Assembly: GCA_964019425.1 (NCBI GenBank) | Contig: OZ025794.1 | Coordinates: 1,054,001-1,118,000 of the forward strand | From: Flectonema sp. DT1601 | Lineage: Eukaryota | Length of the DNA stretch: 64,000 bases | Direction: 5' to 3' | Part shown: one piece after another, positions 3,426 to 63,205 of the stretch | Layout of the letters: every line of letters starts with the position of its first letter | Numbering within the stretch: position 1 is the stretch's first letter | The notes under the pieces: generated by a model | Databases searched by the model: none | What the model was told of the DNA's origin: nothing | Seen by the model: the letters and a program-made list of their open reading frames with translations, nothing else | Translations under genes and position numbers: made by a program

Positions 3426-3485
3426 GTAGTTTCAGGAGCCTTAATCTTATACTACTTGTCCCTTTTTTAGGCCTTCATCAGTAAG
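3426..3485 (-). ncRNA. Putative hammerhead ribozyme, non-circularly permuted (copy B)
   Basis: Minus strand reads CUUA-CUGAUGA-AGGCCU-AAAAAAGGGACAA-GUAG-UA-UAAG-AUUA-AGGCUCCU-GAAA-CUAC. Stem I CUUA/UAAG; stem II AGG(CCU)/(AGG)CU-CCU; stem III CUAC/GUAG; GUA cleavage triplet, predicted cut between 3450 and 3449. Confidence 0.72.
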
Positions 3486-4017
3486 TTCTAAGGGACTTCA
3501 TTCTATGTTGAAGTTGCTATCGTTCTCAGACAAGATAGATAAATAAATCAATAAATCGTAAAGACATCAATTAAATAATGGGTTTGGTTTCAGTTACCAA
3601 GTAGATATAATGTATTTATAAATAACATGGAGCATAAGAGTCTGACAAGTGTTTTTTTTTTTTTTTTTTTTTTTTCCGCCGAAGCGAAGATGCCAGGAAG
3701 AAACCACATGCTAGGACAGTTCTTTTACTTTTCTTTGTCTGCTGGAATTCTATCTGAGAAAACCGGTATTTTTTTTTGTAGCTGGTGGGACATGTGTACA
3801 AGAACCTCACAGTCCCCATAAGAAGGATGACACCGTCCTGGAAAAAGGACGTATAACGCCTAAGACCTAAGCGACGAGCGCAGAGTTCTACAGGTTGCTA
3901 TTTGTGTACTTTGAGTTGTTTGGATTGATCTATCAGAATCGAAACGATTACTCATTGCAGAATTGCATTCACTTGTGCATACCAACCAAGTGAGGTGGAC
4001 GAGAACTATGTTCTGAA

Positions 4018-36400: not shown

Positions 36401-39139
36401 AAAGGTAACTTCTCCGGTGGCAGGGTCAAGTCTGGAAAGGTACTGTCCCTTGCAGGACTCTCCTGCCTGAAGTGCTCCTGCTGGAGGCGTGGCAACGATG
36501 TCAGTTGCGGCAGATTCGACCTCCCCCTCAATCAAGCACATTACAATCTGGTTTTGCGCACCAATTGCTACGACTGTGCGTCCGGCTTGAGTGCGGGTGG
36601 TTGCTTGAATTATAAATTCACGACGTTCTCCAGCGACAGTGGTCTTTCCAGCTTCGTCTTTGAATTGAATATCAATCCTCTCCAGTTCCTGACGAGTTGA
36701 GCAGTATCTCGTTGCAGAATAAGGACACGACACAAATCCCCTGATCGATGAAGATCCAAAGCCACCAACATACACCAATTCTTTAAAACCTCCCTGATCG
36801 GTACAGGTAACAGTTGAGTTCCCAACTTCCATAATGAGGTCAAATTTGTCTCCCCGAGAAACGCAGGAATATGGTAAACACTTACCAGAAAAAGGCTGCG
36901 GGTTGGTCACACGATCGGCGTATTCCATGTTTGACGTGAAACACCCAGAGGCCGATCCAGCAATGCTGTAAGGTCGGCAGAGAGAACCAGTGCAGTCTTG
37001 CCCTGCCCCATTTAAAATAGCAGGCGCCAGACAACTCGATTCAGCACCCACCGGCTCGTAAATAGGACAGTGGTCCATCATTTCGTCACAACCACCATTT
37101 TGACGAGCCAATCTCTCTGCAATATCAGCGGGTATAGACCTCAGAAGTCCGACCTTCCACATGGCTGGGGAAGTGTACTCCAATGGAACCGTAGGAGGAC
37201 TGTTACTTGAGAAGAACATCCTTCTACTGTTGCAAGTTCCAATGCGACCTCCGTCGACAGTACACTGCTTAGCAGTTAAACGTGATCCGGCGCCAGGTTG
37301 GAGGATACTTTCAAAGAAACACTGGTAGTTGTTTAAGCTTGGTTGGTGGTACCAATGGTAGCAAGTCTCTCGTGCCATCACGCAACCGGCATCGAAACCC
37401 CACGAGAGGTATTCTGCAGAATTGAAATCAGCTCTGTAAAAACCGGTGTCATCAAGCATAGCAAGAGTAAGACCGGAAAGCACCGCACCAACATCAACTT
37501 GCATGTTCATAACTTCTCCCCTCGTAATACGACGCTCCCACAGGGCTGTGAAGCGCGAAGGGAAGTCAGTAAAACCGGTACCGTATCCCATCGCCGTGTG
37601 CGTGTAATCCTCAACTTCCAATCCTGTCATCGACTGGCAATTGAAGTGAAGTCTTGCCTGCTGGATAACCTTCTTAGAGCTCACAAGAGTAACCTCGGTA
37701 GGCACACCGATAGGAACTGAATTCCGCCATCCATCAAATCCCGTCCTGTACAATGCATCGGTGGAAAGCCCGTTGTCGTGTTGGTTGCGGTTTCCAGCTG
37801 TGTCGAAAACACGTTTACTGTGACGAGTCTGAGTCTGGAACATCAAGTCAGCTTCCACGGGGGTAGGTGCCTGAGTGTAGTCGTCACTCCAGTCAGCGTA
37901 TTTTTCAGCCAGTTCAGGTGTCCATCCGAGTGCCTGGACCAACTCGTGAAGTACAACAGATGCCATGTAATCAGTGTCTCCGAAGATTTGATCAGGCTGG
38001 ATCGTTAGCATACCAACAATTGGTCTAAAACTCTGCTTTGCAAAGTGACAAGGCCATGCAGCAGCGTTACTCTGAATTCTAGTACCATCTCTGTTGTAGA
38101 TCAAGACCGGGTTAGCAGCGACGAAAAGGTAAAAGTCTGCAGTGGTAGCAGTCAAAGGAAGGTTGCTAAACACATCGGTAAGCCCGTCCTTGGCGTTACA
38201 GTTGGCCTGGTTGTTAGTAACCTGAATAACGGATTCCCCCTCGGATCTCTTCAAGGCCATAATACCAGTGCGAATGCGTTTGATGGCTTCAGAAACGATG
38301 GTTCTAATTCTAGTCAACTTCGTGTTATCAATAACCCACGTACTCTCACAGTTGTAGGTCTGACCGTCAGTAGTAGTATACGCGTCCTTGGCCTCACTCG
38401 CACCGCCAGTGGCACCGTGGGCAAGTTGAATAGTTTCTCCGTTTGATCCCTGACAGGCAAACCTTTGGGAATCAAGAAGAGAATAATCAACATGGATGTT
38501 CAATGGCTCTTGTGTTTGAACGCTCGGCACGGTGAAAGTTTCGCAGTTATCACAAACGACAGCATCCTGTCTTGCCTGAACATCACTGTTTGGTTGGTGT
38601 TGTTTTTGTTTGTTGTTAATTTAAACAAATCGTTTCCCTTTGTAAGGACGTCAACGCAAAGAAAAACATCTTTCCTTTGTCCCTTGCTCATATGAACGAT
38701 TGCGAAACAGGAATAAAAACAGATATTGAGACGGCGAAAAATAAAATTCATGCGACTTAAAAAATGAATCGTCGCCTCACTATAATGAATAACTTACAAC
38801 ACCAGCTTTGGTTTCGCTTGTGCGCACCTGGAAAACAAATCTGTAAAGGAAAGTAAAACGCTATTGCTGCTGCTGCTCCCGCGATTCTCTTTCGCTCGGG
38901 AAACTAACATTAAAGAAGAAGGGGGGCAAAAAAAAAAAAAAAGGGTATCTCTCGTTTCAATAAAATAAAGTAACATACGCAGCAGTCTTTTGGAAAATTG
39001 ATCCTTGGAGATGCTTTACATCTTGATGAAGCTCTCCAAACTGACGCAGTCCTTTCGGACTGCATGTTGTGACAGGTGCAGCATCAGCCTGCCCGAAAAG
39101 GCAAAGAATTGCCCCAACCGAGATAATAGCAGATTTCAT
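6421..39139 (-). CDS. Giant secreted multidomain protein (about 10,654 aa) with N-terminal leishmanolysin/GP63-like M8 domain; proposed exons 39139-38979, 38827-38798, 38585-8234, 8102-7980, 7861-7565, 7422-6421
   Basis: The 10,113-aa open frame joins flanking ORFs through GT...CAG introns that keep the frame (donors GTATGT x4, GTAAGT x1; phases 2,2,0,0,0). Joined CDS = 31,965 nt = 10,655 codons. Exon 1 encodes a signal peptide (MKSAIISVGAILCLFGQADA). The three 3' introns interrupt one continuous domain (VVLEYEEPVYLSQ|VYVFENAEPGSVVSIW...IDSVAILG). Confidence 0.88.
7030..14300 (-). other. C-terminal region of the giant protein: EGF-like domains, LamG/concanavalin-like domain, Cys/Pro-rich repeats, discoidin-like beta-sandwich
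   Basis: EGF motifs CSGHGLCQSNGECTC, YWDGDNCEKCAEGYYGERC, CNGNGACRC...WAGEKC, CNGNGVC...WDGADC. LamG-like DFSVEMML...RWVRLRV...FSGWMREI at about 11.9-12.4 kb. Five CxxY/FxC...CxxxCxxDxxC repeats at about 8.8-10.0 kb. Confidence 0.7.
23980..25420 (-). other. Kelch-type beta-propeller within the giant protein
   Basis: Repeated Kelch blades: GRLGHAAH...FVFGG, LAGGSSVVYKNKLWYFSG, ARVEAEGFLIGTRMYVVGG, FSFYGG, LFFFGG. Confidence 0.78.
35645..36170 (-). other. C-type lectin-like domain within the giant protein
   Basis: CPWG...RCFTYV...AKEYC...YLATIPN...PYWTGLE...C...ECENTLPFFCE cysteine and WxGL pattern. Confidence 0.8.
36700..38500 (-). other. Leishmanolysin/GP63 (peptidase M8)-like domain with degenerate zinc site
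   Basis: Family motifs ADFYLFVAA, AAAWPC...RPIVG, VVLHELVQALGW, ARLHFNC...GLEVED, LWERRITRGEVM, LTLAMLDDTGFYRADF, LSWGFDAGC, DEMMDHCP. Confidence 0.9.
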
Positions 39140-39170
39140 ACTGCTAGTACACAAAGAGGAAAAAGGATAT
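39140..39170 (-). promoter_or_regulatory. Pyrimidine tract plus AG immediately before the start codon (candidate trans- or cis-splice acceptor)
   Basis: Minus strand TCCTTTTTCCTCTTTGTGTACTAGCAG-T-ATG. A comparable TTTATTCAG lies about 20 nt upstream of the SDR ATG. Confidence 0.45.
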
Positions 39171-39655
39171 TTAAAGGTTTCCTTTTCTCTTGCTCTCTTG
39201 GTTTATATTAATTATAGTTTGTTTGTTTTTTTTAATAATTTATGTATCTGATGTGAAGTAAGGGTGATAGTTTGACAATGTAGAAAACAATAAGAAATTT
39301 TATAATACTGAAATAAGTAATAAAATTAAACTGAAAAAACGACAGAAGCTTAAGCTTTCATTTTAGAATATGTATCTGATGCGAAGGGGGTAACTTGAGA
39401 CTAATATTAAAGGATGGAAAGCAACTTGAAACTGGCTAAAACTAAAGTGGCGTCCGACCAATTCCGGTTGCCATGTAAAAAAGACCAACAGTCAGTATCG
39501 ACAACACATATGTGCTGTCTGGGGGGTTAACTGTTTGATTTTGTACGTAAAATACAAATGTTTTGTATCATAAAAAACATAACGATAATTTAACATTAGT
39601 TCTGAGATACAGTGACTAGGTGTGATGCTTAACTTAGCCTTTTAAAGTAACTATT

Positions 39656-39711
39656 AGGTTTCGAGAGTAATCCATATACCTCTTACCTCTATTCTCTCAT
39701 CATCAGTATGG
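39656..39711 (-). ncRNA. Putative hammerhead ribozyme, non-circularly permuted (copy A, in the Penelope-like element 3' region)
   Basis: Minus strand reads CCAUA-CUGAUGA-U-GAGAG-AAUAGAGGUAAG-AGG-UA-UAUGG-AUUA-CUCUC-GAAA-CCU. Stem I CCAUA/UAUGG; stem II GAGAG/CUCUC; stem III CCU/AGG; GUA triplet, predicted cut between 39677 and 39676. About 170 nt downstream of the ORF2 stop on the same strand. Confidence 0.75.
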
Positions 39712-39883
39712 TGTAGAAGTAAGTCAATCATCTGTTGTGACTGAAGCATCTTAGTTAGCAAGACTAGGATGTAGTTACTTTGTTATAATGTTTATAAAAA
39801 AAACATTCTTCTTGTTATTACTAGTTCGTAGCGCACTACTAGTGGAGCACTCTTCTACAATAAATGTAGAAAGTATAAGATGA

Positions 39884-41764
39884 TTAATTATCAAGATCTG
39901 ATGCATAATCTGATACATCTTCAAAATCATGTAAAACAGGAGTCGAAGGAGTATCTAAGATGTTCGTAACGTTCTCTTTATCTTCACTTTTAGGTGTGTT
40001 GATATCTTCTTGTTTGGCTCGTTTCTTTCGTACATCTTTTCTTAGTAGCGGCTGCATAGGACTTTCAGAATTTAATCTCTTTGTATATTTCGACTTCTCC
40101 TTCTTTTTTGCTGAAGCGACTAGCATCTTATTAACCTCAACTTTGATCTTGCGTTTACTTTTAGATCCGTTCTTATTCTCTAACTTTTTTCTCTTGTCCT
40201 TGTCCATGTATCCATTAAATTCGATTATTGGAATCGGACTTTCAGAATTTAATCTTTTGCGGGTATCTCTTTTTGGTGTAGTTAGTGTACTATCCTCTTT
40301 CTCAAGAATTTGTGTTACTAGCTTTGCACCTCTTTTGATAGACCGCACGTTTAGTTTCTTCTTCTCCTTGATGACCATTGTGATCTTGTTGGAGCCATCA
40401 CTGTTGTTAACTTCATACGTTGTATTATCATGATCCATGTAATATGGAAAGTCCTTTGAGGCTCTGAATATTGCGCATATGTGGACATGATCAATAATTG
40501 ATTTTTTAGTCTTGAAGCAATATTTACATTTCCTCTTGATATGCGTTGTATCTTTGTAGGATGGTTCTGACGAGGATGTTGTAGTTGGCACGTCAGTCAT
40601 TGAGTTCTCAACTATTTCTGTTGCCTTTTCTAGTTCAACATGCGACGTTGTCTCATCTTTCTTACTTCCGGTTTCATCTTTAAGTTGGGGAAGTATCTTA
40701 CTAGATTCTTCATTGATAGGTTCCGATGTTTTATCCTTAATCTGCGTATGTGATTGCGTAATGACTTTAGTTTTAGGGATAATTGACTCGTGAGATCCAT
40801 TATTGAAAGCTTTCTTTTTGGATTGCTTCATAGCATGTTTATGAGACAGTATATTGGACTTTTTGTTACGTTTTGAACAAGGTTCAAGGGTATCACTTAA
40901 ACTTTCCGGCATTGAAGTTACGGGGTTCATACTATCTTCTGTGTCTATGACAACAGTGTTATTTCGTGCTGCTGTTTTCGGAGTTGTAACTTTTAACGAT
41001 GGTGCAGTGTATGTTGTAACAATCTTGTTAGGTTGCCTATTCATTGCTAAATCATAAATAAGCTCCCGATTGTGTCCATTCCAACAAGTTAGTGGTTCTT
41101 GTGGGACAATCTTGTTGGTTGTCGGAGTTTTGATTTTGCCTCCCGACTTTTGTTTTACCGGTGTTTCAAACACATGTCGATGTTCAGGTGTTTCTAAACA
41201 CGGTGGTGATATAGCCTCAGTCGCAATGAGACTATTGTTTCTGACCTCCATATGAACATTAGTTTGTGGTGGTGAAGCAAGTTCGTTTGCGTTGATACTG
41301 TTGTTGTCGATAACTATAGGCATATGAATACCAGTCTGCGGTGGTGAAATATACTCGAATGTCTCGAGACTGTTGTTGTTAATTACCGTATGAACATCCG
41401 TATGTGGTGGTGCAATAGGCTCAATTACGTTGAGATCATTGTTATTGATCAACATATGTACATCCGTTTGTGGTGGTGATATCTCGTTGTAGCTATTGGT
41501 ATCGACATCGGTAAGGCAAGTTTTATGAATTGAGTCGTTACTCTTTTTCTTGGCACTTATAAGAGTATCCACATGTGGTGGTGGGATGATGTCAATATCA
41601 TATAGACTTCTGTTATTGACGGCAATCACCGTGTCAATATCAATATCCATCCGAGTTGGTGAAGTAACATCTGTTGGACTCTTAGTATCGGAGGATAGTT
41701 GGCGGTGAGATGGCAACAATGCTGTCCCCGTTGTGATAGACTTGTGGGGGTGAGATGGCAGCAA
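39884..41764 (-). CDS. PLE ORF2 / frameshifted continuation of ORF1: ISPPQT-type repeats, C2HC zinc-finger-like motif, Lys-rich tail
   Basis: 626-aa open frame overlapping the ORF1 end in the +1 frame. The ISPP repeats begun in ORF1 continue here; CKYC-x9-H-x3-C at 40475-40528; duplicated KRLNSESP. Confidence 0.62.
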   Translation of the reverse strand: MLPSHPHKSITTGTALLPSHRQLSSDTKSPTDVTSPTRMDIDIDTVIAVNNRSLYDIDIIPPPHVDTLISAKKKSNDSIHKTCLTDVDTNSYNEISPPQTDVHMLINNNDLNVIEPIAPPHTDVHTVINNNSLETFEYISPPQTGIHMPIVIDNNSINANELASPPQTNVHMEVRNNSLIATEAISPPCLETPEHRHVFETPVKQKSGGKIKTPTTNKIVPQEPLTCWNGHNRELIYDLAMNRQPNKIVTTYTAPSLKVTTPKTAARNNTVVIDTEDSMNPVTSMPESLSDTLEPCSKRNKKSNILSHKHAMKQSKKKAFNNGSHESIIPKTKVITQSHTQIKDKTSEPINEESSKILPQLKDETGSKKDETTSHVELEKATEIVENSMTDVPTTTSSSEPSYKDTTHIKRKCKYCFKTKKSIIDHVHICAIFRASKDFPYYMDHDNTTYEVNNSDGSNKITMVIKEKKKLNVRSIKRGAKLVTQILEKEDSTLTTPKRDTRKRLNSESPIPIIEFNGYMDKDKRKKLENKNGSKSKRKIKVEVNKMLVASAKKKEKSKYTKRLNSESPMQPLLRKDVRKKRAKQEDINTPKSEDKENVTNILDTPSTPVLHDFEDVSDYASDLDN

Positions 41765-44700
41765 TTGTATTTACTTTGTATATTCTCGGAGGTGATACCG
41801 CCATGATTTGACACCCAGATGAGCTGTGATATAGGTTACGAAAGTTTGGGATGGTTGGTATAATCTGCGGTGTTGCAATTATAAGTGTTGTATTTTCGTA
41901 ATTAAATTGTGTATCCGTATTATAAAGTGGACCAGTTAGAATAGTGGTCATTGGTGATTCCATATGTACATCGGTATTTGGTGTAGCATATTCCATATGA
42001 CATAAGTTAGTATTCTGATTGGTGTTCAAGATATGATTGGGAACCTTAGTGAGCTTTGTGGTTCCACTTACAAAATCATTTGACTTTTGATCTTCAGAAG
42101 TTATGTAATCAGTGATGTCGAAGTGAGTATTGGGTTTAGAAGCCTTGTTAGCAACACCTATTGCTTCCTTATCGTCCAAATCCACATCTTGCTGACCTAT
42201 TTTTGGATCTAGGTGTGTATCTATCTCTGGATTTTGAATGACTTCCTTTGGATCTTGAATGACTTCCTTTGGATCTTGAATGACTTTCTTTGGATCTTGA
42301 ATGACTTTCTTTGGATCTTGAATGACTTCCTTTGGATCTTGAATGACTTCCTTTGGATCTTGAATGACTTCCTTTGGATCTTGAATGACTTCCTTTGGAT
42401 CTTGAATGACTTTCTTTGGATCTTGAATGACTTCCTTTGGATCTTGAATGACTTCCTTTGGATCTTGAATGACTTCCTTTGGATCTTGAATGACTTCCTT
42501 TGGATCTTGAATGACTTCCTTTGGATCTTGAATGACTTCCTTTGGATCTTGAATGACTTTCTTTGGATCTTGAATGACTTCCTTTGGATCTTGAATGACT
42601 TCCTTTGGATCTTGAATGACTTTCTTTGGATCTTGAATGACTTCCTTTGGATCTTGAATGACTTTCTTTGGATCTTGAATGACTTCCTTTGGTTCTTGAA
42701 TGACTTCCTTCGGTTCTTGAATGACTTTCTTTGGTTCTTGAAGGACTTCCTTATGAGTAGTATTTTCATTCGAAGATCTCAAATCCAATGGATCTGCGGC
42801 TTTAGCTGTTGTAGAGATATCATCCTCTTCAAATTTCTGTAACATCTCGTATAACAGTGCTGTGTCATCGTTATCATTCGTCTTTTGACTAAGAGTATCT
42901 TTCTCTTGTTTGTTTTCCATGTGGGGCTCCATTGTTGGATAGTCGAGGTTCGGAAATTGGAGTTTCTCCATAGGATTGTTTTTTGTAGGGCAGAATGCGA
43001 AGTGATAGTCAAATGTTTCCAAAGGATATATCCTGGCAATGTCGTTCCACGTTTCATAACTTGGAGTGTGTTGAATGATATCATATCCTGCATACTCTGT
43101 ATCTTTTCCGATAAATAAGATATAGTGAGTGTATGCTAATCTACGTGTAATTATAACGAATGGAAAGCGTTTTAGGTTTTGTTCTTTGAGTATATTGTTG
43201 ACTTTATCTAAATCTTCTGCGCTGGTACAATGGTGTATTTCTAAGGACAGATGAATCTTAATTGTCTCATATATGACTAATTGGTGAAACCATCCATCAG
43301 GATTGAATTGGAACATTTCAACCAATCCTAACCACTTCATTTCTTGTGTTGCCAACTCATCTTGAATCTTAAAGACTTTAGATATCTGAATTCTCTCGAT
43401 GTTCAGATAATCAGCCATAAAATTAATGGTGGCCCAACCACACTCACCGCTGTTAAGGCCTTCAGCTGGTTTAGTGTGCATAGAAATAGGAAACCTTTTA
43501 TCGATCGAGATATCCCATTCAGGACCTCTATCATTCTTCATAACTGGTTTTTCAGTTTGAGATTTTTCCGTTTCATCTTCTTGCGTTTCTGTAGTATTAT
43601 CTGTCATAACTACATCAGTATCTGGTGTGTTAGGAGTTGACTTCCCTTCTGTTGTAACTTCCGCCGATTTTCCAGGCGTGTCAACCTTGAGGAAGATTTT
43701 TTGAATATCACTTTCCGTATATTTACTTGTAATTGGAAAGTAATAACCTCCATTAGTACGACCAACAACCATGTGACATTCGTGATTCACATGTTTGTTA
43801 ATTATTTCACGGGTTGTCTTACCCTGGTCGTATGATAGAATACTGATGGGAACAGGTAGTATTTTGTCGAAGTCTTTGCAAAATTTGGTTACTTTAAATA
43901 TCCCATTGCGATATTTAATATCCAAAGCATCAATCTGTGTCTCAGTGTTCTTGTTTATTGCGGTGGAACATATTAGACATTGATCTGGATTGTTAGTGAT
44001 TGAGTGACTTGCAATCCGGAATGCAGTAACCATGGTGTTATTACATTTTTTGAGTTTTGCATACCCAACGTTCTTATCGAGTAACATGTTATAAATGTCA
44101 TCTCGTCCATTCAGTTTGTAGTACTGTTGGATTGTTTTCTTCTCAGAGGTGACGGGTAGTTCCTTGTCATATCTCCAATTTGTCTTGAAAAAGAATTGCT
44201 GGAGGTTATCTCTCTGTTTCGGAAAATCCCAGTATGTACTAAGAATGAAATCTTTGTATTGTGGGAAGAGGCTCTTCTTCGAGTACCCTCGGCTGCGTAG
44301 CCTGTAAATCACCTTTTCGATTTCCAAGTATAAGTCGAAGTCATTGTTGATATTGGTTGCTGCTCTGTACAAGGCTCCTTTCAATATGCCCGGACCAAGG
44401 CTTCTTGGTGCGTTTGATGTCGAGCTTGTGTATTTGATGGGTTGAAAATTGAACAGATTTTCTTTGTCCCATATTGACAGACGAATGAATGGATGTCCTC
44501 TTGGTCTTTCTTCAAATCTTACTCTCATTCCTAGGAAAACTATGTCATTGCGTCCAAGTGACGTATCTGTGTATGACATTTGATATTCAGCTTGCGGAGG
44601 TGGAGTAGGTTCATTCTTACTAAAGATTAGAAAGTCATCAATATATCTGAAGATTATCCTGTCATTAGCAATACTTAAACCATTGCTATGGATGATGTTG

Positions 44701-45263
44701 TCAATCCAGTTCTTTTCGATACCAAAGCAGTACAGATTAGCAATGTGAGGAGAGCATTGAGAACCCATTGGAATACCATGACATTGCCTTAACATATGGT
44801 CACCATTTTTAATATAAGAATTAGATAGTATTACATTCAGTAGTTCCTTGATCTCCTCTATGTTGTAAGCAACTTGCACATCTTCGTTAAATTCGTTTGC
44901 CAAGTAGAAATCTTTACCAATTCGACTTCGTTTATCTCTAACTATCAAATTGTCTCCAATGTATTCTTCGACTAATGTATTAATAACAGCTTTAATTTTT
45001 GTATGTGGTAAGTTGGTGTACATATCTGAGAAGTCAAAAGTGCTAACTCTCATTTCTTGAAGAGAGGAGTAGTTACTTTTAATGTACTGAGCAACTTCAT
45101 CAACATTATCCACAATGAAGTATTTTCTGATTCCTGTTGTATCAGATTTCTCTGTTTCGACTTTTTTAACTATAGACATAAATGTTTTCATGATTGAGGC
45201 GATCGGCAGGTGGAGGTGTTCACGATTTTTCACTTTGCTACACGAAAATTCACGATTTTTCAC
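41682..45263 (-). CDS. PLE ORF1 (N-terminally truncated): reverse transcriptase + thumb + Josephin-like protease + KEVIQDP repeat
   Basis: RT motifs STFDFSDMYTNLPH (~45030), QCHGIPMGSQCSPHIANLY (~44770), FRYIDD (YIDD 44634-44645), VFLGMRV, PLE-type thumb GALYRAATNIN...LRSRGY. The first ~20 codons come from unrelated flanking DNA. Confidence 0.82.
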   Translation of the reverse strand: MKNREFSCSKVKNREHLHLPIASIMKTFMSIVKKVETEKSDTTGIRKYFIVDNVDEVAQYIKSNYSSLQEMRVSTFDFSDMYTNLPHTKIKAVINTLVEEYIGDNLIVRDKRSRIGKDFYLANEFNEDVQVAYNIEEIKELLNVILSNSYIKNGDHMLRQCHGIPMGSQCSPHIANLYCFGIEKNWIDNIIHSNGLSIANDRIIFRYIDDFLIFSKNEPTPPPQAEYQMSYTDTSLGRNDIVFLGMRVRFEERPRGHPFIRLSIWDKENLFNFQPIKYTSSTSNAPRSLGPGILKGALYRAATNINNDFDLYLEIEKVIYRLRSRGYSKKSLFPQYKDFILSTYWDFPKQRDNLQQFFFKTNWRYDKELPVTSEKKTIQQYYKLNGRDDIYNMLLDKNVGYAKLKKCNNTMVTAFRIASHSITNNPDQCLICSTAINKNTETQIDALDIKYRNGIFKVTKFCKDFDKILPVPISILSYDQGKTTREIINKHVNHECHMVVGRTNGGYYFPITSKYTESDIQKIFLKVDTPGKSAEVTTEGKSTPNTPDTDVVMTDNTTETQEDETEKSQTEKPVMKNDRGPEWDISIDKRFPISMHTKPAEGLNSGECGWATINFMADYLNIERIQISKVFKIQDELATQEMKWLGLVEMFQFNPDGWFHQLVIYETIKIHLSLEIHHCTSAEDLDKVNNILKEQNLKRFPFVIITRRLAYTHYILFIGKDTEYAGYDIIQHTPSYETWNDIARIYPLETFDYHFAFCPTKNNPMEKLQFPNLDYPTMEPHMENKQEKDTLSQKTNDNDDTALLYEMLQKFEEDDISTTAKAADPLDLRSSNENTTHKEVLQEPKKVIQEPKEVIQEPKEVIQDPKKVIQDPKEVIQDPKKVIQDPKEVIQDPKEVIQDPKKVIQDPKEVIQDPKEVIQDPKEVIQDPKEVIQDPKEVIQDPKEVIQDPKKVIQDPKEVIQDPKEVIQDPKEVIQDPKEVIQDPKKVIQDPKKVIQDPKEVIQDPKEVIQNPEIDTHLDPKIGQQDVDLDDKEAIGVANKASKPNTHFDITDYITSEDQKSNDFVSGTTKLTKVPNHILNTNQNTNLCHMEYATPNTDVHMESPMTTILTGPLYNTDTQFNYENTTLIIATPQIIPTIPNFRNLYHSSSGCQIMAVSPPRIYKVNTIAAISPPQVYHNGDSIVAISPPTILRY
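42228..42752 (-). repeat. In-frame 21-bp minisatellite, 25 copies, encoding K(E/K)VIQ(D/E)P
   Basis: Unit GGATCTTGAATGACTT(C/T)CTTT; 525 bp = 25 x 21. Confidence 0.97.
43000..43480 (-). other. Josephin (ataxin-3-like) cysteine protease domain
   Basis: ECGWATIN (Cys 43440-43442), DGWFHQLVIYETI, THYILFIGKDTEYAGYD (His 43125-43127, Asp 15 residues later) match the order and spacing of ataxin-3 LCAQHCLN / SGFFSIQVISNAL / HWF...FNLN. Confidence 0.68.
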
Positions 45264-45362
45264 GATTTTTCACTTAATTTTTTGCTGCTTTCTGGTAGTG
45301 AAATCCCGTGAAAATGTGTGAAAATGTGTGAAAATGTGTGAATTCTAGTGAAAAAAGTGAGT
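45219..45362. repeat. Small fold-back-like element with opposed TTTTCAC / GTGAAAA sub-repeats
   Basis: Several TTCAC(GATTTT) copies on the left and GTGAAAAT(GT) copies on the right, directly at the PLE truncation point. Confidence 0.6.
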
Positions 45363-46081: not shown

Positions 46082-47361
46082 AGACCACCAATGTTGTGCG
46101 TTGATAGGCAAGGTGACCAACCTTGACATTCTTTCTTTTCTCTCCTGTTGTGACAAACACAAAATACACACACAGCTTACAGTGTGTTCTTTGTGTATGT
46201 TTTCTTCAGGTGTGAGTAGTTTTTTTGTTCTTGCTCTTCAGGGAGGGCCTTAGCCAAAAGCTAACAGTCCAAATCTCACCTGGTAAACTCAACTCAGTCT
46301 TTGTCAGTTTTGGCATCAAACCTGTAATGGTTACATTAACTACCATTTCAACAGGTTATTTACTGAAATATTTGTTCTAAAAGTTGCTAAGTATTTCTCA
46401 CTTAGAAATTTTTTATTTTTTTATTTTCAGCTTAATCAGCTACAAATTGTTTCTACTAAGTGTTTCTCACTTAGATTTTTTTTTTGCTTTTCAGCTCCTT
46501 AAAAGCTGCTAAGTGTTTCTGCTAAGTGTTTCTCACTTAGAATTTTATTGTTATGTTCGTTTTCTATCCCCTCTTCTATCCCTTTTGTTCAAAAAAAGCG
46601 ATGAGAAATTTCTCTCATTCATGCTAAGATGCACTCTGAACTTTGATTTTTTGATCTGAGTGTGAGGGAATGACCTGTTAGTGCATTGGGCATAAGCTGG
46701 GCTGCAGTTTAGATGTCTTAGGTGTTAATAGGGGGTTCCTCTTAGCATTTTTCTTTGTTCCCACCTTATGATTTTCTTGAAGAAAAAAAATAGAAGTCAT
46801 AATGGTGCTTCCCTCTGGAAGGGTTGTAAGCCATGGTGTCCAACTAAATTAAAGGACAAGTCTGGGATAATCCCTGCCAGAGGGGCGAGTATTCTACCAT
46901 GGTTGAAATACTCTGGCAACTGATCTTCAATTTTATGTTGTTTGTTAGCTGCTGGTGTATCTTGATTATGTGTTGATACTTGCATTTTTTTATTTGTAAT
47001 CTTCTATTACAATTCTCTTTCTGTTCTGGTCTGTTACTTCATTTGTCTTGTTTAACTTCAGTTATATCCATTTTACTTTTTATTGTTTCCCATCTACTTT
47101 TTATTTTCTATTAGTTCTGGTCAGAAACTCCTGGGCAGCAAGAAGGAAAGCAGTTTAGTACTTCTGGGTGTTTGGCATCACCCCCCATAGTGAGCAAGTA
47201 CAACAGGTAGCATTGGTAGTCTGTTGATCCTGAGTGATCCCAGCTACAGTTTTGTTTTTCTTTCTTTTTTTTAGAAGAAGATCAGGACATCCAAGCACTG
47301 CTGGATAGTTGCTGAATGCAGGGCCTGCCTGTGGCATTATAATAACAGGCTAAGTCATTTG
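46082..47361 (-). repeat. Inverted, circularly permuted copy of the 1.3-kb repeat unit
   Basis: Reverse complement of the 49.6-55.2 kb unit (same 60-aa and 62-aa ORFs on the minus strand); spans the unit-unit junction at about 46295. Confidence 0.92.
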
Positions 47362-48172
47362 ACAATGTTATCATTGTTTTTTTTATCGATCGACTTTGTC
47401 GACTAATTTCTATTTTCCGTCCTGGTCAAGACGCTAAACTGATTATTTTTTTCTTTAAAAAATAAATAAAAAGAATAAAAAAAAAAAAAAAAAATGAATA
47501 AACAATGTTATCATTGTTTCTTATCGATCGACTTTGTCGACTAATTTCTATTTTCCGTCCTGGTCAAGACGCTAAACTGATTGTTTTTTCTTTTAAAAAA
47601 TAAATAAAAGATATAAAAAAAAAAAAAAAAAAAGAAATAAACAATGTTATCATTGTTTTTTTTTATCGATCGACTTTGTCGATTACTGTCTACTTTCCGT
47701 CCTGGTCAAGACGCTAAACTGATTGTTTTTTTTTAAAAATAAATAAAAAGAATATTAAAAAAAAAAAAAAAAAAAAATGAATAAACAATGTTATCATTGT
47801 TTCTTATCGATCGACTTTGTCGACTAATTTCTATTTTCCGTCCTGGTCAGGACGCTAAACTGATTGTTTTTTCTTTAAAAAATAAATAAAAAGATAAAAA
47901 AAAAAAAAAAAAAAGGAATAAACAATGTTATCATTGTTTTTTTTATCGATCGACTATGTCGATTACTTTCTATTTTCCGTCCTGGTCAGGACGCTAAACT
48001 GATTGTTTTTTCTTTAAAAAATAAATAAAAAGTTAAAAAAAAAAAAAAAAAAGGAATAAACAATGTTATCATTGTTTTTTTTTTATCGATCGACTATGTC
48101 GATTACTTTCTATTTTCTGTCCTGGTCAAGACGCTAAACTGATTGTTTTTTCTTTAAAATAATTAAAAGGAA

Positions 48173-48203
<31 letters not shown>

Positions 48204-48478
48204 GAATAAACAATGTTATCATTGTTTTTTTTTCTATCGATCGACTATGTCGATTAATTTCTATTTTCCGTCCTGATCGAGACGCTAAACTGATTGTTTC
48301 CTTTTTTTTTAAATAATAAATAAAAAATAAAAAAATAAAAAAATAAAAAAAAAGAGCATCTCCCTGCTATCCCTCATATCCCCACAATAATATTATACCT
48401 TTTCATTTTCTCTTTCCTTTTCTGGTCTTTTTTTTTTTTTTTTTTCCTTTTTCATACAACGTTTTTTTATTTATATAT
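47362..48478. repeat. ~140-bp hairpin-rich satellite (7 units) plus conserved ~125-bp tail ending in (TA)n
   Basis: Units start at about 47362, 47502, 47641, 47785, 47922, 48060 and 48210. The tail GAGCATCTCCCTGCTATCCC... recurs at about 61796 and 62854. Confidence 0.93.
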
Positions 48479-48488
48479 CATACTTGTA

Positions 48489-48642
48489 CCCCTTTAAAGG
48501 GGGCAAAATAAAGGGGAAATTAAAGGGCTTTTAATGCCCTTTAATTTCCGTAATTCCAAAATAAAGGGGAAATAAAGGGGAAATAAGCAGAATAAAGGGG
48601 GGTGGGAAAGCCCCTTTATTTCCGCTTTATTTATTAAATCCC
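48489..48642. repeat. Palindrome-rich segment built from ATAAAGGG(G) sub-repeats
   Basis: Perfect palindrome CCCCTTTAAAGGGG (48489-48502); 14-bp inverted repeat GGAAATTAAAGGGC/GCCCTTTAATTTCC (48515-48549); further AAATAAAGGGG / CCCCTTTATTT copies. Confidence 0.75.
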
Positions 48643-48669
48643 AAGGCACCCACCACGCTGCGTCATCCT

Positions 48670-49627
48670 AAGCCGGAAAGGAAAATTACTCGAAAGTCGG
48701 GGCAGTTCGAACGTCAGCATTCACATCAGCAAGCAACCAGTCCTGAGTACTTAAAGAACCCAACCATTACGTGTATCAGTCACAGTCACACTTAGTATAG
48801 CGTTAGTACAGAGGACACGGATCTGCTATGCAGGGAAGTGACTTGAACTCGTTCAACTAATTAATGTGTGTAGATATAAGCGCCGCGAATTGACGGGTCT
48901 GAAGTTATGCTTTCCGAAGAGAGCAACCACCCACGCGAGTGTTATTTTGACGCTATAACCTGTGACTTTCAACACGTAACAACCAGGGATAATTCTCAGT
49001 AAGGCCGCCGTCACCGTGAAGCTGCTACGAATATAACCCAACAAACTAGCAATTCCTCCAACTTTTTTCGTCAGTCGGGATTGTTACATGCCGGAAAAGG
49101 AAACTACTCGAAAGTCGGGGCAGTTCGAACGTCAGCATTCACATTAGCAAGCAACCAGTCTTGAGAACCCAACCATTACGTGCATCAGCCACAGTTAACC
49201 TGCAACTTTCAACATGTAACAACCAGGGATAATTCTCAATAAGGCCGCCGTCACCGTGAAGCTGCTACGAATAACAGTTCGAACGTCAACATTCACATTA
49301 GCAAGCAACCAGTCTTGAGAACCCAATGATTACGTGAATCAGTCACAGTTAACCTGCAACTTTCAACATGTAACAACCAGGGATAATTCTCAATAAGGCC
49401 GCCGTCACCGTGAAGCTGCTACGAATAACAGTTCGAACGTCAGCCTTCACATTAGCAAGCAACCAGTCTTGAGAACCCAATGATTACGTGAATCAGTCAC
49501 AGTTAACCTGCAACTTTCAACATGTAACAACCAGGGATAATTCTCAATAAGGCCGCCGTCACCGTGAAGCTGCTACGAATAACAGTTCGAACGTCAGCAT
49601 TCACATTAGCAAGCAACCAGTCTTGAG
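48670..49627. repeat. 154-bp tandem repeat array (left part)
   Basis: CAGTTCGAACGTC recurs at 49121, 49275, 49429 and 49583 (period 154); a longer variant lies at about 48670-49050. Confidence 0.93.
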
Positions 49628-52600
49628 GTTGAGTTTACCAGGTGAGATTTGGACTGTTAGCTTTTGGCTAAGGCCCTCCCTGAAGAGCAAGAACAAAAAA
49701 ACTACTCACACCTGAAGAAAACATACACAAAGAACACACTGTAAGCTGTGTGTGTATTTTGTGTTTGTCACAACAGGAGAGAAAAGAAAGAATGTCAAGG
49801 TTGGTCACCTTGCCTATCAACGCACAACATTGGTGGTCTCTACTAGACCCTGAGTGATCCCACTGGATCTCTCATCGTTCATAGTACCTATGTGAAGTTA
49901 TAAAATCAAAGGTAAACTATGAACTACAAATGACTTAGCCTGTTATTATAATGCCACAGGCAGGCCCTGCATTCAGCAACTATCCAGCAGTGCTTGGATG
50001 TCCTGATCTTCTTCTAAAAAAAAGAAAGGAAAACAAAACTGTAGCTGGGATCACTCAGGATCAACAGACTACCAATGCTACCTGTTGTACTTGCTCACTA
50101 TGGGGGGTGATGCCAAACACCCAGAAGTACTAAACTGCTTTCCTTCTTGCTGCCCAGGAGTTTCTTACCAGAACTAATAGAAAATAAAAAGTAGATGGGA
50201 AACAATAAAAAGTAAAATGGATATAACTGAAGTTAAACAAGACAAATGAAGTAACAGACCAGAACAGAAAGAGAATTGTAATAGAAGATTACAAATAAAA
50301 AAATGCAAGTATCAACACATTATCAAGATACACCAGCAGCTAACAAACAACATAAAATTGAAGATCAGTTGCCAGAGTATTTCAACCATGGTAGAATACT
50401 CGCCCCTCTGGCAGGGATTATCCCAGACTTGTCCTTTAATTTAGTTGGACACCATGGCTTACAACCCTTCCAGAGGGAAGCACCATTATGACTTCTATTT
50501 TTTTTCTTCAAGAAAATCATAAGGTGGTAACAAAGAAAAATGCTAAGAGGAACCCCTTATTAACACCTAAGACATCTAAACTGCAGCCCAGCTTATGCCC
50601 AATGCACTAACAGGTCATTCCCTCACACTCAGATCAAAAAATCAAAGTTCAGAGTGCATCTTAGCATGAATGAGAGAATTTCCTCCCGCTTTTTTTGAAC
50701 AAAAGGGATAGGAGAAGGGATAGAAAACGAACATAACAATAAGATTCTAAGTGAGAAACACTTAGTAGAAACACTTTGTAGCTAATTGAGCTGAAAATAA
50801 AAAAATAAAAAAAAATTCTAAGTGAGAGATACTTAGCAACTTTTAGAACAAATATTTCAGTAAATAACCTGTTGAAATGGTAGTTAATGTAACCATTACA
50901 GGTTTGATGCCAATACTGACAAAGACTGAGTTGAGTTTACCAGGTGAGATTTGGACTGTTAGCTTTTGGCTAAGGCCCTCCCTGAAGAGCAAGAACAAAA
51001 AAACTACTCACACCTGAAGAAAACATACACAAAGAACACACTGTAAGCTGTGTGTGTATTTTGTGTTTGTCACAACAGGAGAGAAAAGAAAGAATGTCAA
51101 GGTTGGTCACCTTGCCTATCAACGCACAACATTGGTGGTCTCTACTAGACCCTGAGTGATCCCACTGGATCTCTCATCGTTCATAGTACCTATGTGAAGT
51201 TATAAAATCAAAGGTAAACTATGAACTACAAATGACTTAGCCTGTTATTATAATGCCACAGGCAGGCCCTGCATTCAGCAACTATCCAGCAGTGCTTGGA
51301 TGTCCTGATCTTCTTCTAAAAAAAAGAAAGAAAAACAAAACTGTAGCTGGGATCACTCAGGATCAACAGACTACCAATGCTACCTGTTGTACTTGCTCAC
51401 TATGGGGGGTGATGCCAAACACCCAGAAGTACTAAACTGCTTTCCTTCTTGCTGCCCAGGAGTTTCTTACCAGAACTAATAGAAAATAAAAAGTAGATGG
51501 GAAACAATAAAAAGTAAAATGGATATAACTGAAGTTAAACAAGACAAATGAAGTAACAGACCAGAACAGAAAGAGAATTGTAATAGAAGATTACAAATAA
51601 AAAAATGCAAGTATCAACACATTATCAAGATACACCAGCAGCTAACAAACAACATAAAATTGAAGATCAGTTGCCAGAGTATTTCAACCATGGTAGAATA
51701 CTCGCCCCTCTGGCAGGGATTATCCCAGACTTGTCCTTTAATTTAGTTGGACACCATGGCTTACAACCCTTCCAGAGGGAAGCACCATTATGACTTCTAT
51801 TTTTTTTCTTCAAGAAAATCATAAGGTGGTAACAAAGAAAAATGCTAAGAGGAACCCCTTATTAACACCTAAGACATCTAAACTGCAGCCCAGCTTATGC
51901 CCAATGCACTAACAGGTCATTCCCTCACACTCAGATCAAAAAATCAAAGTTCAGAGTGCATCTTAGCATGAATGAGAGAATTTCCTCCCGCTTTTTTTGA
52001 ACAAAAGGGATAGGAGAAGGGATAGAAAACGAACATAACAATAAGATTCTAAGTGAGAAACACTTAGTAGAAACACTTTGTAGCTAATTGAGCTGAAAAT
52101 AAAAAAATAAAAAAAAATTCTAAGTGAGAGATACTTAGCAACTTTTAGAACAAATATTTCAGTAAATAACCTGTTGAAATGGTAGTTAATGTAACCATTA
52201 CAGGTTTGATGCCAATACTGACAAAGACTGAGTTGAGTTTACCAGGTGAGATTTGGACTGTTAGCTTTTGGCTAAGGCCCTCCCTGAAGAGCAAGAACAA
52301 AAAAACTACTCACACCTGAAGAAAACATACACAAAGAACACACTGTAAGCTGTGTGTGTATTTTGTGTTTGTCACAACAGGAGAGAAAAGAAAGAATGTC
52401 AAGGTTGGTCACCTTGCCTATCAACGCACAACATTGGTGGTCTCTACTAGACCCTGAGTGATCCCACTGGATCTCTCATCGTTCATAGTACCTATGTGAA
52501 GTTATAAAATCAAAGGTAAACTATGAACTACAAATGACTTAGCCTGTTATTATAATGCCACAGGCAGGCCCTGCATTCAGCAACTATCCAGCAGTGCTTG

Positions 52601-55229
52601 GATGTCCTGATCTTCTTCTAAAAAAAAGAAAGAAAAACAAAACTGTAGCTGGGATCACTCAGGATCAACAGACTACCAATGCTACCTGTTGTACTTGCTC
52701 ACTATGGGGGGTGATGCCAAACACCCAGAAGTACTAAACTGCTTTCCTTCTTGCTGCCCAGGAGTTTCTTACCAGAACTAATAGAAAATAAAAAGTAGAT
52801 GGGAAACAATAAAAAGTAAAATGGATATAACTGAAGTTAAACAAGACAAATGAAGTAACAGACCAGAACAGAAAGAGAATTGTAATAGAAGATTACAAAT
52901 AAAAAAATGCAAGTATCAACACATTATCAAGATACACCAGCAGCTAACAAACAACATAAAATTGAAGATCAGTTGCCAGAGTATTTCAACCATGGTAGAA
53001 TACTCGCCCTTCTGGCAGGGATTATCCCAGACTTGTCCTTTAATTTAGTTGGACACCATGGCTTACAACCCTTCCAGAGGGAAGCACCATTATGACTTCT
53101 ATTTTTTTTCTTCAAGAAAATCATAAGGTGGTAACAAAGAAAAATGCTAAGAGGAACCCCTTATTAACACCTAAGACATCTAAACTGCAGCCCAGCTTAT
53201 GCCCAATGCACTAACAGGTCATTCCCTCACACTCAGATCAAAAAATCAAAGTTCAGAGTGCATCTTAGCATGAATGAGAGAATTTCCTCCCGCTTTTTTT
53301 GAACAAAAGGGATAGGAGAAGGGATAGAAAACGAACATAACAATAAGATTCTAAGTGAGAAACACTTAGTAGAAACACTTTGTAGCTAATTGAGCTGAAA
53401 ATAAAAAAATAAAAAAAAATTCTAAGTGAGAGATACTTAGCAACTTTTAGAACAAATATTTCAGTAAATAACCTGTTGAAATGGTAGTTAATGTAACCAT
53501 TACAGGTTTGATGCCAATACTGACAAAGACTGAGTTGAGTTTACCAGGTGAGATTTGGACTGTTAGCTTTTGGCTAAGGCCCTCCCTGAAGAGCAAGAAC
53601 AAAAAAACTACTCACACCTGAAGAAAACATACACAAAGAACACACTGTAAGCTGTGTGTGTATTTTGTGTTTGTCACAACAGGAGAGAAAAGAAAGAATG
53701 TCAAGGTTGGTCACCTTGCCTATCAACGCACAACATTGGTGGTCTCTACTAGACCCTGAGTGATCCCACTGGATCTCTCATCGTTCATAGTACCTATGTG
53801 AAGTTATAAAATCAAAGGTAAACTATGAACTACAAATGACTTAGCCTGTTATTATAATGCCACAGGCAGGCCCTGCATTCAGCAACTATCCAGCAGTGCT
53901 TGGATGTCCTGATCTTCTTCTAAAAAAAAGAAAGAAAAACAAAACTGTAGCTGGGATCACTCAGGATCAACAGACTACCAATGCTACCTGTTGTACTTGC
54001 TCACTATGGGGGGTGATGCCAAACACCCAGAAGTACTAAACTGCTTTCCTTCTTGCTGCCCAGGAGTTTCTTACCAGAACTAATAGAAAATAAAAAGTAG
54101 ATGGGAAACAATAAAAAGTAAAATGGATATAACTGAAGTTAAACAAGACAAATGAAGTAACAGACCAGAACAGAAAGAGAATTGTAATAGAAGATTACAA
54201 ATAAAAAAATGCAAGTATCAACACATTATCAAGATACACCAGCAGCTAACAAACAACATAAAATTGAAGATCAGTTGCCAGAGTATTTCAACCATGGTAG
54301 AATACTCGCCCCTCTGGCAGGGATTATCCCAGACTTGTCCTTTAATTTAGTTGGACACCATGGCTTACAACCCTTCCAGAGGGAAGCACCATTATGACTT
54401 CTATTTTTTTTCTTCAAGAAAATCATAAGGTGGTAACAAAGAAAAATGCTAAGAGGAACCCCTTATTAACACCTAAGACATCTAAACTGCAGCCCAGCTT
54501 ATGCCCAATGCACTAACAGGTCATTCCCTCACACTCAGATCAAAAAATCAAAGTTCAGAGTGCATCTTAGCATGAATGAGAGAATTTCCTCCCGCTTTTT
54601 TTGAACAAAAGGGATAGGAGAAGGGATAGAAAACGAACATAACAATAAGATTCTAAGTGAGAAACACTTAGTAGAAACACTTTGTAGCTAATTGAGCTGA
54701 AAATAAAAAAATAAAAAAAAATTCTAAGTGAGAGATACTTAGCAACTTTTAGAACAAATATTTCAGTAAATAACCTGTTGAAATGGTAGTTAATGTAACC
54801 ATTACAGGTTTGATGCCAATACTGACAAAGACTGAGTTGAGTTTACCAGGTGAGATTTGGACTGTTAGCTTTTGGCTAAGGCCCTCCCTGAAGAGCAAGA
54901 ACAAAAAAACTACTCACACCTGAAGAAAACATACACAAAGAACACACTGTAAGCTGTGTGTGTATTTTGTGTTTGTCACAACAGGAGAGAAAAGAAAGAA
55001 TGTCAAGGTTGGTCACCTTGCCTATCAACGCACAACATTGGTGGTCTCTACTAGACCCTGAGTGATCCCACTGGATCTCTCATCGTTCATAGTACCTATG
55101 TGAAGTTATAAAATCAAAGGTAAACTATGAACTACAAATGACTTAGCCTGTTATTATAATGCCACAGGCAGGCCCTGCATTCAGCAACTATCCAGCAGTG
55201 CTTGGATGTCCTGATCTTCTTCTAAAAAA
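49628..55229. repeat. 1302-bp tandem repeat, 4.3 near-identical copies
   Basis: Units start GTTGAGTTTACCAGG at 49628, 50930, 52232, 53534 and 54836; short ORFs recur with an exact 1302-bp period. Confidence 0.97.
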
Positions 55230-55230
55230 G

Positions 55231-55420
55231 TAAGGCCGCCGTCACCGTGAAGCTGCTACGAATAACAGTTCGAACGTCAGCATTCACATTAGCAAGCAAC
55301 CAGGCTTGAGAACCCAATCATTACGTAACATGTAACAACCAGGGATAATTCTCAATAAGGCCGCCGTCACCGTGAAGCTGCTACGAACATAACCCAACAA
55401 ACTAGCAATTCCACTCACTT
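55231..55420. repeat. 154-bp repeat family (right part, resumes after the 1302-bp array)
   Basis: TAAGGCCGCCGTCACCGTGAAGCTGCTACGAA resumes at 55231 and about 55337 and ends with ATAACCCAACAAACTAGCAATTCC, as at about 49030. Confidence 0.9.
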
Positions 55421-59500: not shown

Positions 59501-59644
59501 AATGCTAGTTAATGTAACCATTACAGGTTTGATGCCAATACTGACAAAGACTGAGTTGAGTTTACCAGGTGAGATTTGGACTGTTAGCTTTTGGCTAAGG
59601 CCCTCCCTGAAGAGCAAGAACAAAAAAACTACTCACACCTGAAG
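56594..59644. repeat. Second cluster of 1.3-kb-family units (longer variants and truncated copies)
   Basis: Units start at about 56594, 57963 (58-bp stub), 58019 (about 167 extra bp at 58633-58840) and 59555 (90-bp stub). These carry three CTAAGTGAGA sub-repeats rather than two. Confidence 0.93.
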
Positions 59645-62977: not shown

Positions 62978-63205
62978 GAGGGTCTTTTTAAACCCCCCCC
63001 CCAAAATGGGCCAGGCTATCCTGTGGGCACCTAACACCCAATCCGAGCCCACCACTCCAGCAAAATACTATCCAAAAAACTCAAATCCGGTACTGGGGCA
63101 TCCTTTTACTGCCCACCAGTTTGAAAATTTCACTTTTTTTAACTGTATTTGGTACTTTTGCCTTGTAACTCTATTAGGAACCCTGAAAACACCCAAATTG
63201 AGCTT

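What the first reader, a model, noticed from the sequence alone, without database searches (positions are those of the whole stretch)
39656..39711. Hammerhead ribozyme with non-circularly permuted (pseudoknotted) strand order in the 3' region of a Penelope-like element
Seen: on the minus strand the whole hammerhead core is present (CUGAUGA, GAAA, GUA cleavage triplet, plus one extra U before stem II) and all three stems pair (I CCAUA/UAUGG, II GAGAG/CUCUC, III CCU/AGG). However, the cleavage strand (stem III-UA-stem I) lies INSIDE the loop of stem II. Calling the strands A (stem I-CUGAUGA-stem II), B (stem II-GAAA-stem III) and C (stem III-UH-stem I), the order is A-C-B. Established: types I/II/III are the circular orders ABC, BCA and CAB; PLEs commonly carry hammerheads; the distal ends of stems I and II lie close together in the active fold, which would suit the 4-nt AUUA linker. 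Inference: a rearranged self-cleaving RNA that standard type I-III searches would miss and that may process the element RNA. From memory, non-circularly permuted hammerheads have been reported elsewhere, so novelty of the topology itself must be checked.
Basis: partly seen in the sequence, partly recalled or inferred. Interest (0 to 1): 0.92.

Follow-up and report, generated by a model that had tools for sequence, protein, structure and literature searches.

The report
Scrambled hammerhead ribozyme ending Penelope-like retroelement
This stretch has every part of a hammerhead self-cutting RNA in a rare scrambled order (type CSG, published from only two orphan sequences) and sits just after the reading frame of a Penelope-like jumping gene, so it likely is the self-cutting RNA that this group of jumping genes was reported to lack.

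Summary
Observation confirmed. The A-C-B order is the published type-CSG permutation (Eckert 2023: two unique soil-DNA sequences, no known context). [quoted passage not shown] A second, sequence-unrelated CSG lies at 3496-3426. Chance: 5 CSG hits in 1000 shuffled windows, none with that helix at 7 bp or more. The element is a 5'-truncated Naiad/Chlamys-clade retroelement, a clade reported to lack canonical hammerheads. The same architecture, with different stem sequences, lies downstream of the RT in 2 of 80 Naiad-like metagenome loci (one family) and, read by eye, in 5 published Naiad consensus records; 6 of 80 loci hold a core-split form; 0 of 80 hold types I-III. Cleavage is untested and stem III is short. 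The topology is known; I found no paper linking it to these retroelements. This scan noted rearranged hammerheads in Naiads on other DNA before (four unchecked notes, seen after my own reading).

The parts
39656..39723 (-). [quoted passage not shown]
39714..39723 (-). Fourth ('I') helix, 5' strand; pairs with 39691-39682
   Evidence: present in MFE and centroid
39694..39711 (-). Block C: stem I 5' strand, CUGAUGA, extra U, stem II 5' strand
39682..39691 (-). Fourth ('I') helix, 3' strand, directly abutting stem III (0-nt linker)
39672..39681 (-). Block S: stem III 5' strand, GUA triplet (predicted cut 3' of A39677), stem I 3' strand
   Evidence: cut position by analogy with PMC10085705
39668..39671 (-). 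4-nt linker from stem I to stem II
   Evidence: published CSG has a short linker here
39656..39667 (-). Block G: stem II 3' strand, GAAA, stem III 3' strand
39644..39781 (-). Outer domain: perfect 10-bp helix 39781-39772 with 39653-39644 enclosing two small hairpins and the ribozyme
   Evidence: z -2.94; 1 of 200 shuffles as stable; role not tested
41682..45269 (-). 5'-truncated open frame: Naiad/Chlamys-type RT with insertion in fingers and thumb, papain-like protease-like domain (about 43511-42951), 7-residue repeats
39884..41770 (-). Overlapping second frame (PP-rich repeats, C/H motif, KR-rich tail), likely the same long ORF broken by a frameshift; stop about 160 bases before the ribozyme
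   Evidence: no Pfam match
3426..3496 (-). Second type-CSG candidate, unrelated in stem sequence: 7-bp fourth helix, stem I 4, stem III 4, GUA triplet (predicted cut 3' of 3450), bulged stem II, outer helix 3506-3499 with 3424-3417; no RT nearby

Best explanation
The stretch has the full anatomy of a type-CSG (non-circularly permuted) hammerhead ribozyme in the 3' untranslated end of a 5'-truncated Penelope-like retroelement that likely belongs to the Naiad/Chlamys clade, and it is predicted to cut the element's own transcript after the GUA at 39677. Shown: the core, four helices, position and strand, and the RT relatives. Inferred: the fourth helix closes first and holds stem I-5', CUGAUGA and stem II-5' in its loop; stem III then closes a second hairpin whose loop holds the cut site, stem I-3', the linker, stem II-3' and GAAA; the two loops kiss through stems I and II and build the ordinary hammerhead core, with the fourth helix and the short linker taking the place of the usual loop I-loop II contact. 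Cleavage would leave a 2',3'-cyclic phosphate on the coding RNA and a 5'-OH on the downstream RNA (established hammerhead chemistry, recalled), and would cut tandem or read-through transcripts at the element's pseudo-LTR, the role proposed for type I hammerheads of other Penelope-like elements.
For: All core nucleotides and stems I-III present. Fourth helix in the same place as in the two published CSG RNAs, which cleave at 0.004 and 0.026 per min. Nested folding gives the fourth helix plus stem III in all three in-session examples. Chance 5 in 1000 windows, 0 with the fourth helix. Same architecture with different stem sequences: second window locus (no nucleotide similarity above shuffles) and L071/L072, sense strand, 879 bases after the RT match. 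Read by eye in the Craig 2021 supplement: 5 of 75 listed CUGAYGA places are CSG with a 9-13-bp fourth helix; the four whose context was read lie after the ORF near Naiad record ends. RT: PF00078; motif A-to-B spacing 88 residues against 83-90 in 42 Naiad-like loci; no GIY-YIG pattern after the RT; nearest relatives carry N-terminal GIY-YIG, CxC and DK motifs and C-terminal cysteine proteases, two of three looked up are from Diplonema papillatum. Craig 2021 reports no canonical hammerhead in Naiads and most Chlamys and 'half cores' with GAAA 35-50 nt away; that distance is 37, 41 and 47 nt in the three in-session CSGs.
Against: No cleavage data. Stem III has only 3 WC pairs plus the core A-U pair, below the 4 of the published pattern; none of the three in-session examples passes the published limits. 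This insertion is truncated and frameshifted, so it may be decayed. No second copy of this family could be compared (no genome held; none in the window), so there is no within-family covariation. 72 of 80 Naiad-like loci showed neither form; 45 of 80 had 500 or more bases downstream and 23 of 80 had 900 or more, so short contigs explain only part of that. The second window copy has no RT near it. The N-terminus is missing, so the endonuclease was not seen; the tree has no named reference elements and no canonical-PLE outgroup. For an Anolis PLE, hammerhead mutants did not affect insertion in vitro and no RNA-seq ends mapped to the cut (PMC11167929), so the biological role is weaker than the chemistry.
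Confidence: 0.77

Rival explanations
1. A once-active CSG hammerhead that has decayed in this dead insertion: real by descent, but no longer cleaving or cleaving only slowly, or only as a dimer or with the element's protein.
For: Short, AU-rich stem III and 0-nt linker; truncated, frameshifted ORF; published CSG RNAs are slow; an Anolis PLE hammerhead cleaved only with protein present.
Against: No mismatch in stems I-III, one G-U in the fourth helix and a perfect outer helix; 0-nt linkers at this junction are described for SGC and short ones for CSG.
Confidence: 0.14
2. The ribozyme is real but belongs to a small non-autonomous passenger or to the neighbouring host gene, not to the RT element beside it.
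For: The second window copy has no RT near it; the element's 3' end was not mapped; the giant host ORF starts about 1 kb further on, on the same strand.
Against: Same strand and about 160 bases after the element's last stop; the same sense-strand, downstream position in L071/L072 and in four Naiad consensus records.
Confidence: 0.07
3. Chance arrangement of short AU-rich complements around a CUGAUGA and a GAAA.
For: The 70-nt core has no unusual nested folding energy (z -0.97); the descriptor was tuned after the fact.
Confidence: 0.02

Closest known systems
Type-CSG hammerhead ribozymes CSG-1 and CSG-2 (Eckert et al. 2023, PMC10085705; read: abstract, methods, part of results section 13-14, sections 15-16, first part of discussion, supplement passages incl. 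Fig. S10, Table S2 row, RNAmotif files)
   Same: Block order C-S-G, all core nucleotides, helix between the 5' flank and the strand after stem II, short stem I-to-II linker; the published pattern also has a version with the extra U.
   Different: Published ones: 2 unique sequences (5 in all) from soil DNA with no element assigned, GUC site, 4-bp stem III, 8-bp fourth helix, 2-nt linker to stem III, cleavage shown. Here: eukaryotic genome, end of an RT element, GUA site, 3-bp stem III, 10-bp helix, 0-nt linker, extra outer helix, cleavage untested.
Type-SGC hammerheads (HRIMA-1 and variants; same paper)
   Same: [quoted passage not shown]
   Different: Blocks start at S, not C; found beside hairpin ribozymes; many more examples with statistical covariation.
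Type I hammerheads in pseudo-LTRs of canonical Penelope-like elements (Cervera and de la Pena 2014, Lunse 2017: seen only as citations; PMC11167929 passages; Craig File S2 rows)
   Same: Hammerhead core in the terminal untranslated region of a PLE, sense strand.
   Different: Those are circular type I (C-G-S) three-way junctions; this is a double-pseudoknot order with no multi-stem junction.
Naiad/Chlamys N-terminal-endonuclease Penelope-like elements (Craig et al. 2021, PMC8557442; read: abstract, sections 6 and 9, passages of 15 and 20, supplement search hits)
   Same: RT with insertion in fingers, no GIY-YIG after the RT, 5' truncation; long C-terminal extension with a cysteine-protease-like domain and a C/H motif recalls Chlamys-1_cBra.
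   Different: Described as lacking canonical hammerheads; the endonuclease, CxC and DK motifs are cut off in this copy; the RT falls among protist-type relatives, apart from the animal Naiad-like loci.

Membership tests
Hammerhead ribozyme | Core CUGANGA, GAAA and UH with stems I, II, III adjacent to them | tested here: met
Hammerhead ribozyme | Site-specific self-cleavage 3' of H17, lost in core mutants | not testable with these tools
   needs in vitro transcription; no sequencing runs listed
Type I, II or III hammerhead | Circular block order CGS, GSC or SCG | tested here: not met
   six-order descriptor gives only CSG; no Rfam hammerhead hit
Type-CSG hammerhead | Block order C-S-G | tested here: met
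Type-CSG hammerhead | [quoted passage not shown] | tested here: met
   10 bp; published layout
Type-CSG hammerhead | Length limits of the published search pattern (stem III 4 or more, linker 10 or less); a search setting, not a definition | tested here: not met
   0 hits at published limits; 39706 and L071 appear when relaxed to stem III 3 and linker 20
Type-CSG hammerhead | Covariation across homologues | tested here: inconclusive
   all four helices kept with different sequences in three in-session examples and five by-eye records, but no alignment of true homologues and no statistical test
Penelope-like element, Naiad/Chlamys clade | PLE-type RT with insertion in fingers between motifs A and B | tested here: met
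   spacing 88 against 83-90 in Naiad-like loci; alignment; canonical PLE spacing not measured here
Penelope-like element, Naiad/Chlamys clade | GIY-YIG endonuclease, CxC and DK motifs N-terminal to the RT | tested here: inconclusive
   missing from this truncated copy; present in nearest relatives (GIY-YIG in 3 of 13 by Pfam, 4 of 13 by pattern; DK in 11 of 13)
Penelope-like element, Naiad/Chlamys clade | No GIY-YIG after the RT | tested here: met
Penelope-like element | Pseudo-LTR from partial tandem or inverted copies | tested here: not met
   no second copy of 38.5-46.0 kb in the window; a lone 5'-truncated copy need not show one

The most novel reading that the evidence does not exclude
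Non-circularly permuted hammerheads (intact CSG and a core-split form with the same helices) are the native ribozymes of the Naiad/Chlamys clade from protists to nematodes, cnidarians and molluscs. That would explain the clade's 'missing' hammerheads, raise CSG from two orphan sequences to a widespread class, and suggest that the orphan soil CSG RNAs are retroelement ends.
Probability: 0.55. Interest if true: 0.85.

Novelty: new variant of a known kind. Interest (0 to 1): 0.74.

Why it matters
Eckert et al. called the evidence for natural type-CSG ribozymes weak because it rested on two similar sequences without context. Craig et al. reported that Naiad/Chlamys elements lack canonical hammerheads, noted unexplained 'half cores', and took the absence as a hint that hammerheads may only parasitise these elements. 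Finding complete CSG folds at the 3' ends of these elements joins the two puzzles, supplies diverse natural sequences for covariation and structure work, and makes both questions testable with short in vitro transcripts.

Tried and rejected
No genome is held, so no copy survey was possible. No sequencing run was listed for 38700-41500; this is no evidence on expression. Rfam: no hammerhead in the window and no gathering-level hit in 20 of the 80 loci. Viral contigs: no RT relative and no match to one CSG-like pattern. A canonical fold using another cleavage strand up- or downstream was not found. The 36-bp segment shared by 39522-39557 and 56189-56224 has no hammerhead of any order beside the second copy. 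The first tree script failed after dropping 38 of 80 loci; the second kept 72 of 80 loci and 45 of the best 49 non-self proteins. No covariance model was built: three sequences and two pseudoknots would not support one. Literature searches for a CSG-retroelement link; only the two source papers bear on it, and neither makes the link in the passages read. Subscription journals are not covered, and bioRxiv supplements were closed.

Full report
Observation. Counted by coordinate: stem I 39711-39707 with 39676-39672, five Watson-Crick pairs; CUGAUGA 39706-39700; an extra U; stem II 39698-39694 with 39667-39663, five pairs; stem III 39681-39679 with 39658-39656, three pairs plus the core pair U39678-A39659; triplet GUA ending at 39677; a 4-nt linker; GAAA 39662-39659. 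The cleavage block lies between the CUGAUGA block and the GAAA block.

The 5' flank 39723-39714 pairs with 39691-39682 over 10 bp (one G-U), and 39781-39772 pairs perfectly with 39653-39644. A pseudoknot-free fold returns the fourth helix and stem III as two adjacent hairpins. Stems I and II are then two loop-loop helices between them. That last step is inference, since the program cannot model it.

Chance. A descriptor for all six block orders finds two loci in the window, both CSG: 39706 and 3481 (first seen). In 1000 windows shuffled in 2-kb blocks there were 5 CSG loci, 43 over all six orders, and none with a fourth helix of 7 bp or more; the real loci have 10 and 7. The thresholds were set after seeing the first motif. 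The second locus and L071 were found blind. The two window loci share no nucleotide similarity above shuffles, so they are separate families that keep the same helices, the GUA site and an AUUA after stem I. The second has a bulged or ambiguous stem II and no RT nearby. The 70-nt core alone is not unusually stable (z -0.97); with the outer helix z is -2.94. Rfam sees no hammerhead.

Topology is known. Eckert et al. 2023 (PMC10085705) name this order type CSG. They had two unique sequences (five in all, soil DNA, no other ribozyme on the contigs), which cleaved at the predicted site at 0.004 and 0.026 per min, and they judged the evidence for biological relevance weaker than for SGC. Their alignment has the same fourth helix and short linkers. 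Their search pattern allowed at most 10 nt between stem II and stem III and needed a 4-bp stem III; none of my three in-session examples passes those limits, and two pass when the limits are relaxed. 'Penelope' occurs in that paper's main text only in a reference title.

The element. The frame 45269-41682 holds an RT (PF00078, E 1e-8) that starts shortly before motif A, so the copy is 5'-truncated. A second frame 41770-39884 overlaps it and probably continues it across a frameshift; its stop lies about 160 bases before the ribozyme, on the same strand. No other copy lies in the window and no genome is held. The first search returned two close pieces and six RTs of Naiad appearance at 25-29% identity ('Naiad' is my reading from the DKA motif and RT spacing described). 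The motif A-to-B spacing is 88 residues, against 83-90 in 42 Naiad-like loci, and no GIY-YIG pattern follows the RT. The deeper search gave 1954 relatives at E 0.001. Of 13 near ones scanned, 3 have an N-terminal GIY-YIG by Pfam and 7 have a C-terminal ubiquitin-hydrolase-type protease hit; CxC and DK motifs precede the RT in most; two of three looked up come from Diplonema papillatum. In a midpoint-rooted FastTree without named references, the window RT falls with these proteins (support 0.98), apart from the 72 metagenome loci kept. The domain after the window RT resembles papain-like C39 peptidases (a lead only). This fits the long Chlamys-type layout with a protease extension. The endonuclease itself is cut off and was not seen.

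Why the clade matters. Craig et al. 2021 (PMC8557442) found no canonical hammerheads in Naiads and most Chlamys, and flagged cores and eight 'half cores' with GAAA 35-50 nt away. In my three CSGs that distance is 37, 41 and 47 nt.

Test on independent DNA. I fetched 80 loci with a Naiad-like RT from metagenome contigs (best 80 of 398). Types I-III: 0 of 80. CSG: 2 of 80 (L071 and L072, one family), sense strand, 879 bases after the RT match, with stems of 7, 4 and 8 bp and a 13-bp fourth helix (fold z -4.17). A core-split form, with the same four helices but the stem II 5' strand moved to the front and CUGANGA last, occurs in 6 of 80, all sense strand, five downstream and one upstream of the RT; 100 shuffles of all 80 loci gave 3 such hits. 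So 72 of 80 showed neither. Only 45 had 500 or more bases downstream and 23 had 900 or more, but absence in the longer ones counts against a universal rule.

Published consensus sequences, read by eye. I listed all 75 places of eight CUGAYGA-N terms in the Craig supplement; other cores and matches broken by line ends were not covered. Five are complete CSG folds with fourth helices of about 9-13 bp and wholly different stems. Four lie after the ORF near the ends of the records that precede Naiad-1_Nbra, Naiad-3_Nbra, Naiad_Hcon and Naiad_Hpol. By the metadata order these are probably Naiad_Parc, Naiad-2_Nbra, Naiad-3_Nbra and Naiad_Hcon, all nematode elements, three of them flagged core or half core. 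The fifth (part 16) has the extra U seen here. Core-split forms are visible in parts 10-12 and 24. I saw no CSG among the Chlamys-part hits. These readings were not run through a program.

Mechanism. Shown: anatomy, position, recurrence. Inferred: co-transcriptional folding into two hairpins whose loops kiss through stems I and II; cleavage 3' of A39677 by ordinary hammerhead chemistry (recalled); cutting of tandem or read-through transcripts at the pseudo-LTR, as proposed for other PLE hammerheads. The biological step is the weakest: in an Anolis PLE, hammerhead mutants inserted normally in vitro, cleavage needed the protein, and no RNA-seq ends mapped to the cut (PMC11167929 passages).

Novelty. 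The permutation is published. A link between it and Penelope-like elements was not found in searches. A 2026 preprint on animal retrozymes discusses type I only in the passages read, and a 2026 paper cites other permutations without this link in the passages read. Subscription journals are not searched. Four unchecked notes of this scan report rearranged hammerheads in Naiads of other genomes; I saw them after my own reading. Their summaries describe split-core or otherwise undescribed orders, and their mention of an opened core guided the descriptor. What this window adds is the intact, published CSG form, twice, beside a protist-type member of the clade. Verdict: real feature, new variant of a known kind, interest 0.74.

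Noticed in passing
window 45555-45472, minus strand: Twister-P1-like RNA (31 bits, E 0.01, below the gathering score of 67) with a 22-nt insertion. By eye both pseudoknots can pair, one through a compensatory change. It lies right after the stop of a 218-codon frame and about 200 bases before the truncated RT; probably the end of another element.
   Followed up: partly
window 38620-8189, minus strand: Single uninterrupted frame of 10,143 codons with a leishmanolysin (M8) domain near the start and Kelch repeats near residue 4500; the second half has no Pfam match.
   Followed up: no
window 39522-39557 and 56189-56224: 36-bp palindromic segment shared at 94%, 100 bases past the ribozyme; could be an element tail or the end of another mobile element.
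   Followed up: partly
window 46082-64000: Array of a 1.3-kb repeat in both orientations, mixed with a roughly 140-bp AT-rich tandem repeat (47.36-48.3 kb, 59.6-62.8 kb) and a roughly 190-bp repeat (49.1-49.6 kb).
   Followed up: no
window about 4218-4015 and 2390-2190: Two near-identical copies of a roughly 200-bp sequence on either side of the second CSG (by eye).
   Followed up: no
window 43511-42951, minus strand; P0013, P0015, P0016, P0018, P0022, P0032: The window RT is followed by a C39-like papain-fold domain, whereas its nearest relatives carry USP-type ubiquitin hydrolase domains in that place: this PLE subclade may have captured cysteine proteases more than once.
   Followed up: partly
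L044:2613, L053:351, L067:3173, L068:2168, L074:3022, L079:4479: Core-split hammerhead-like folds near Naiad-like RTs; the L053 one lies upstream of the ORF, where a pseudo-LTR would be.
   Followed up: partly
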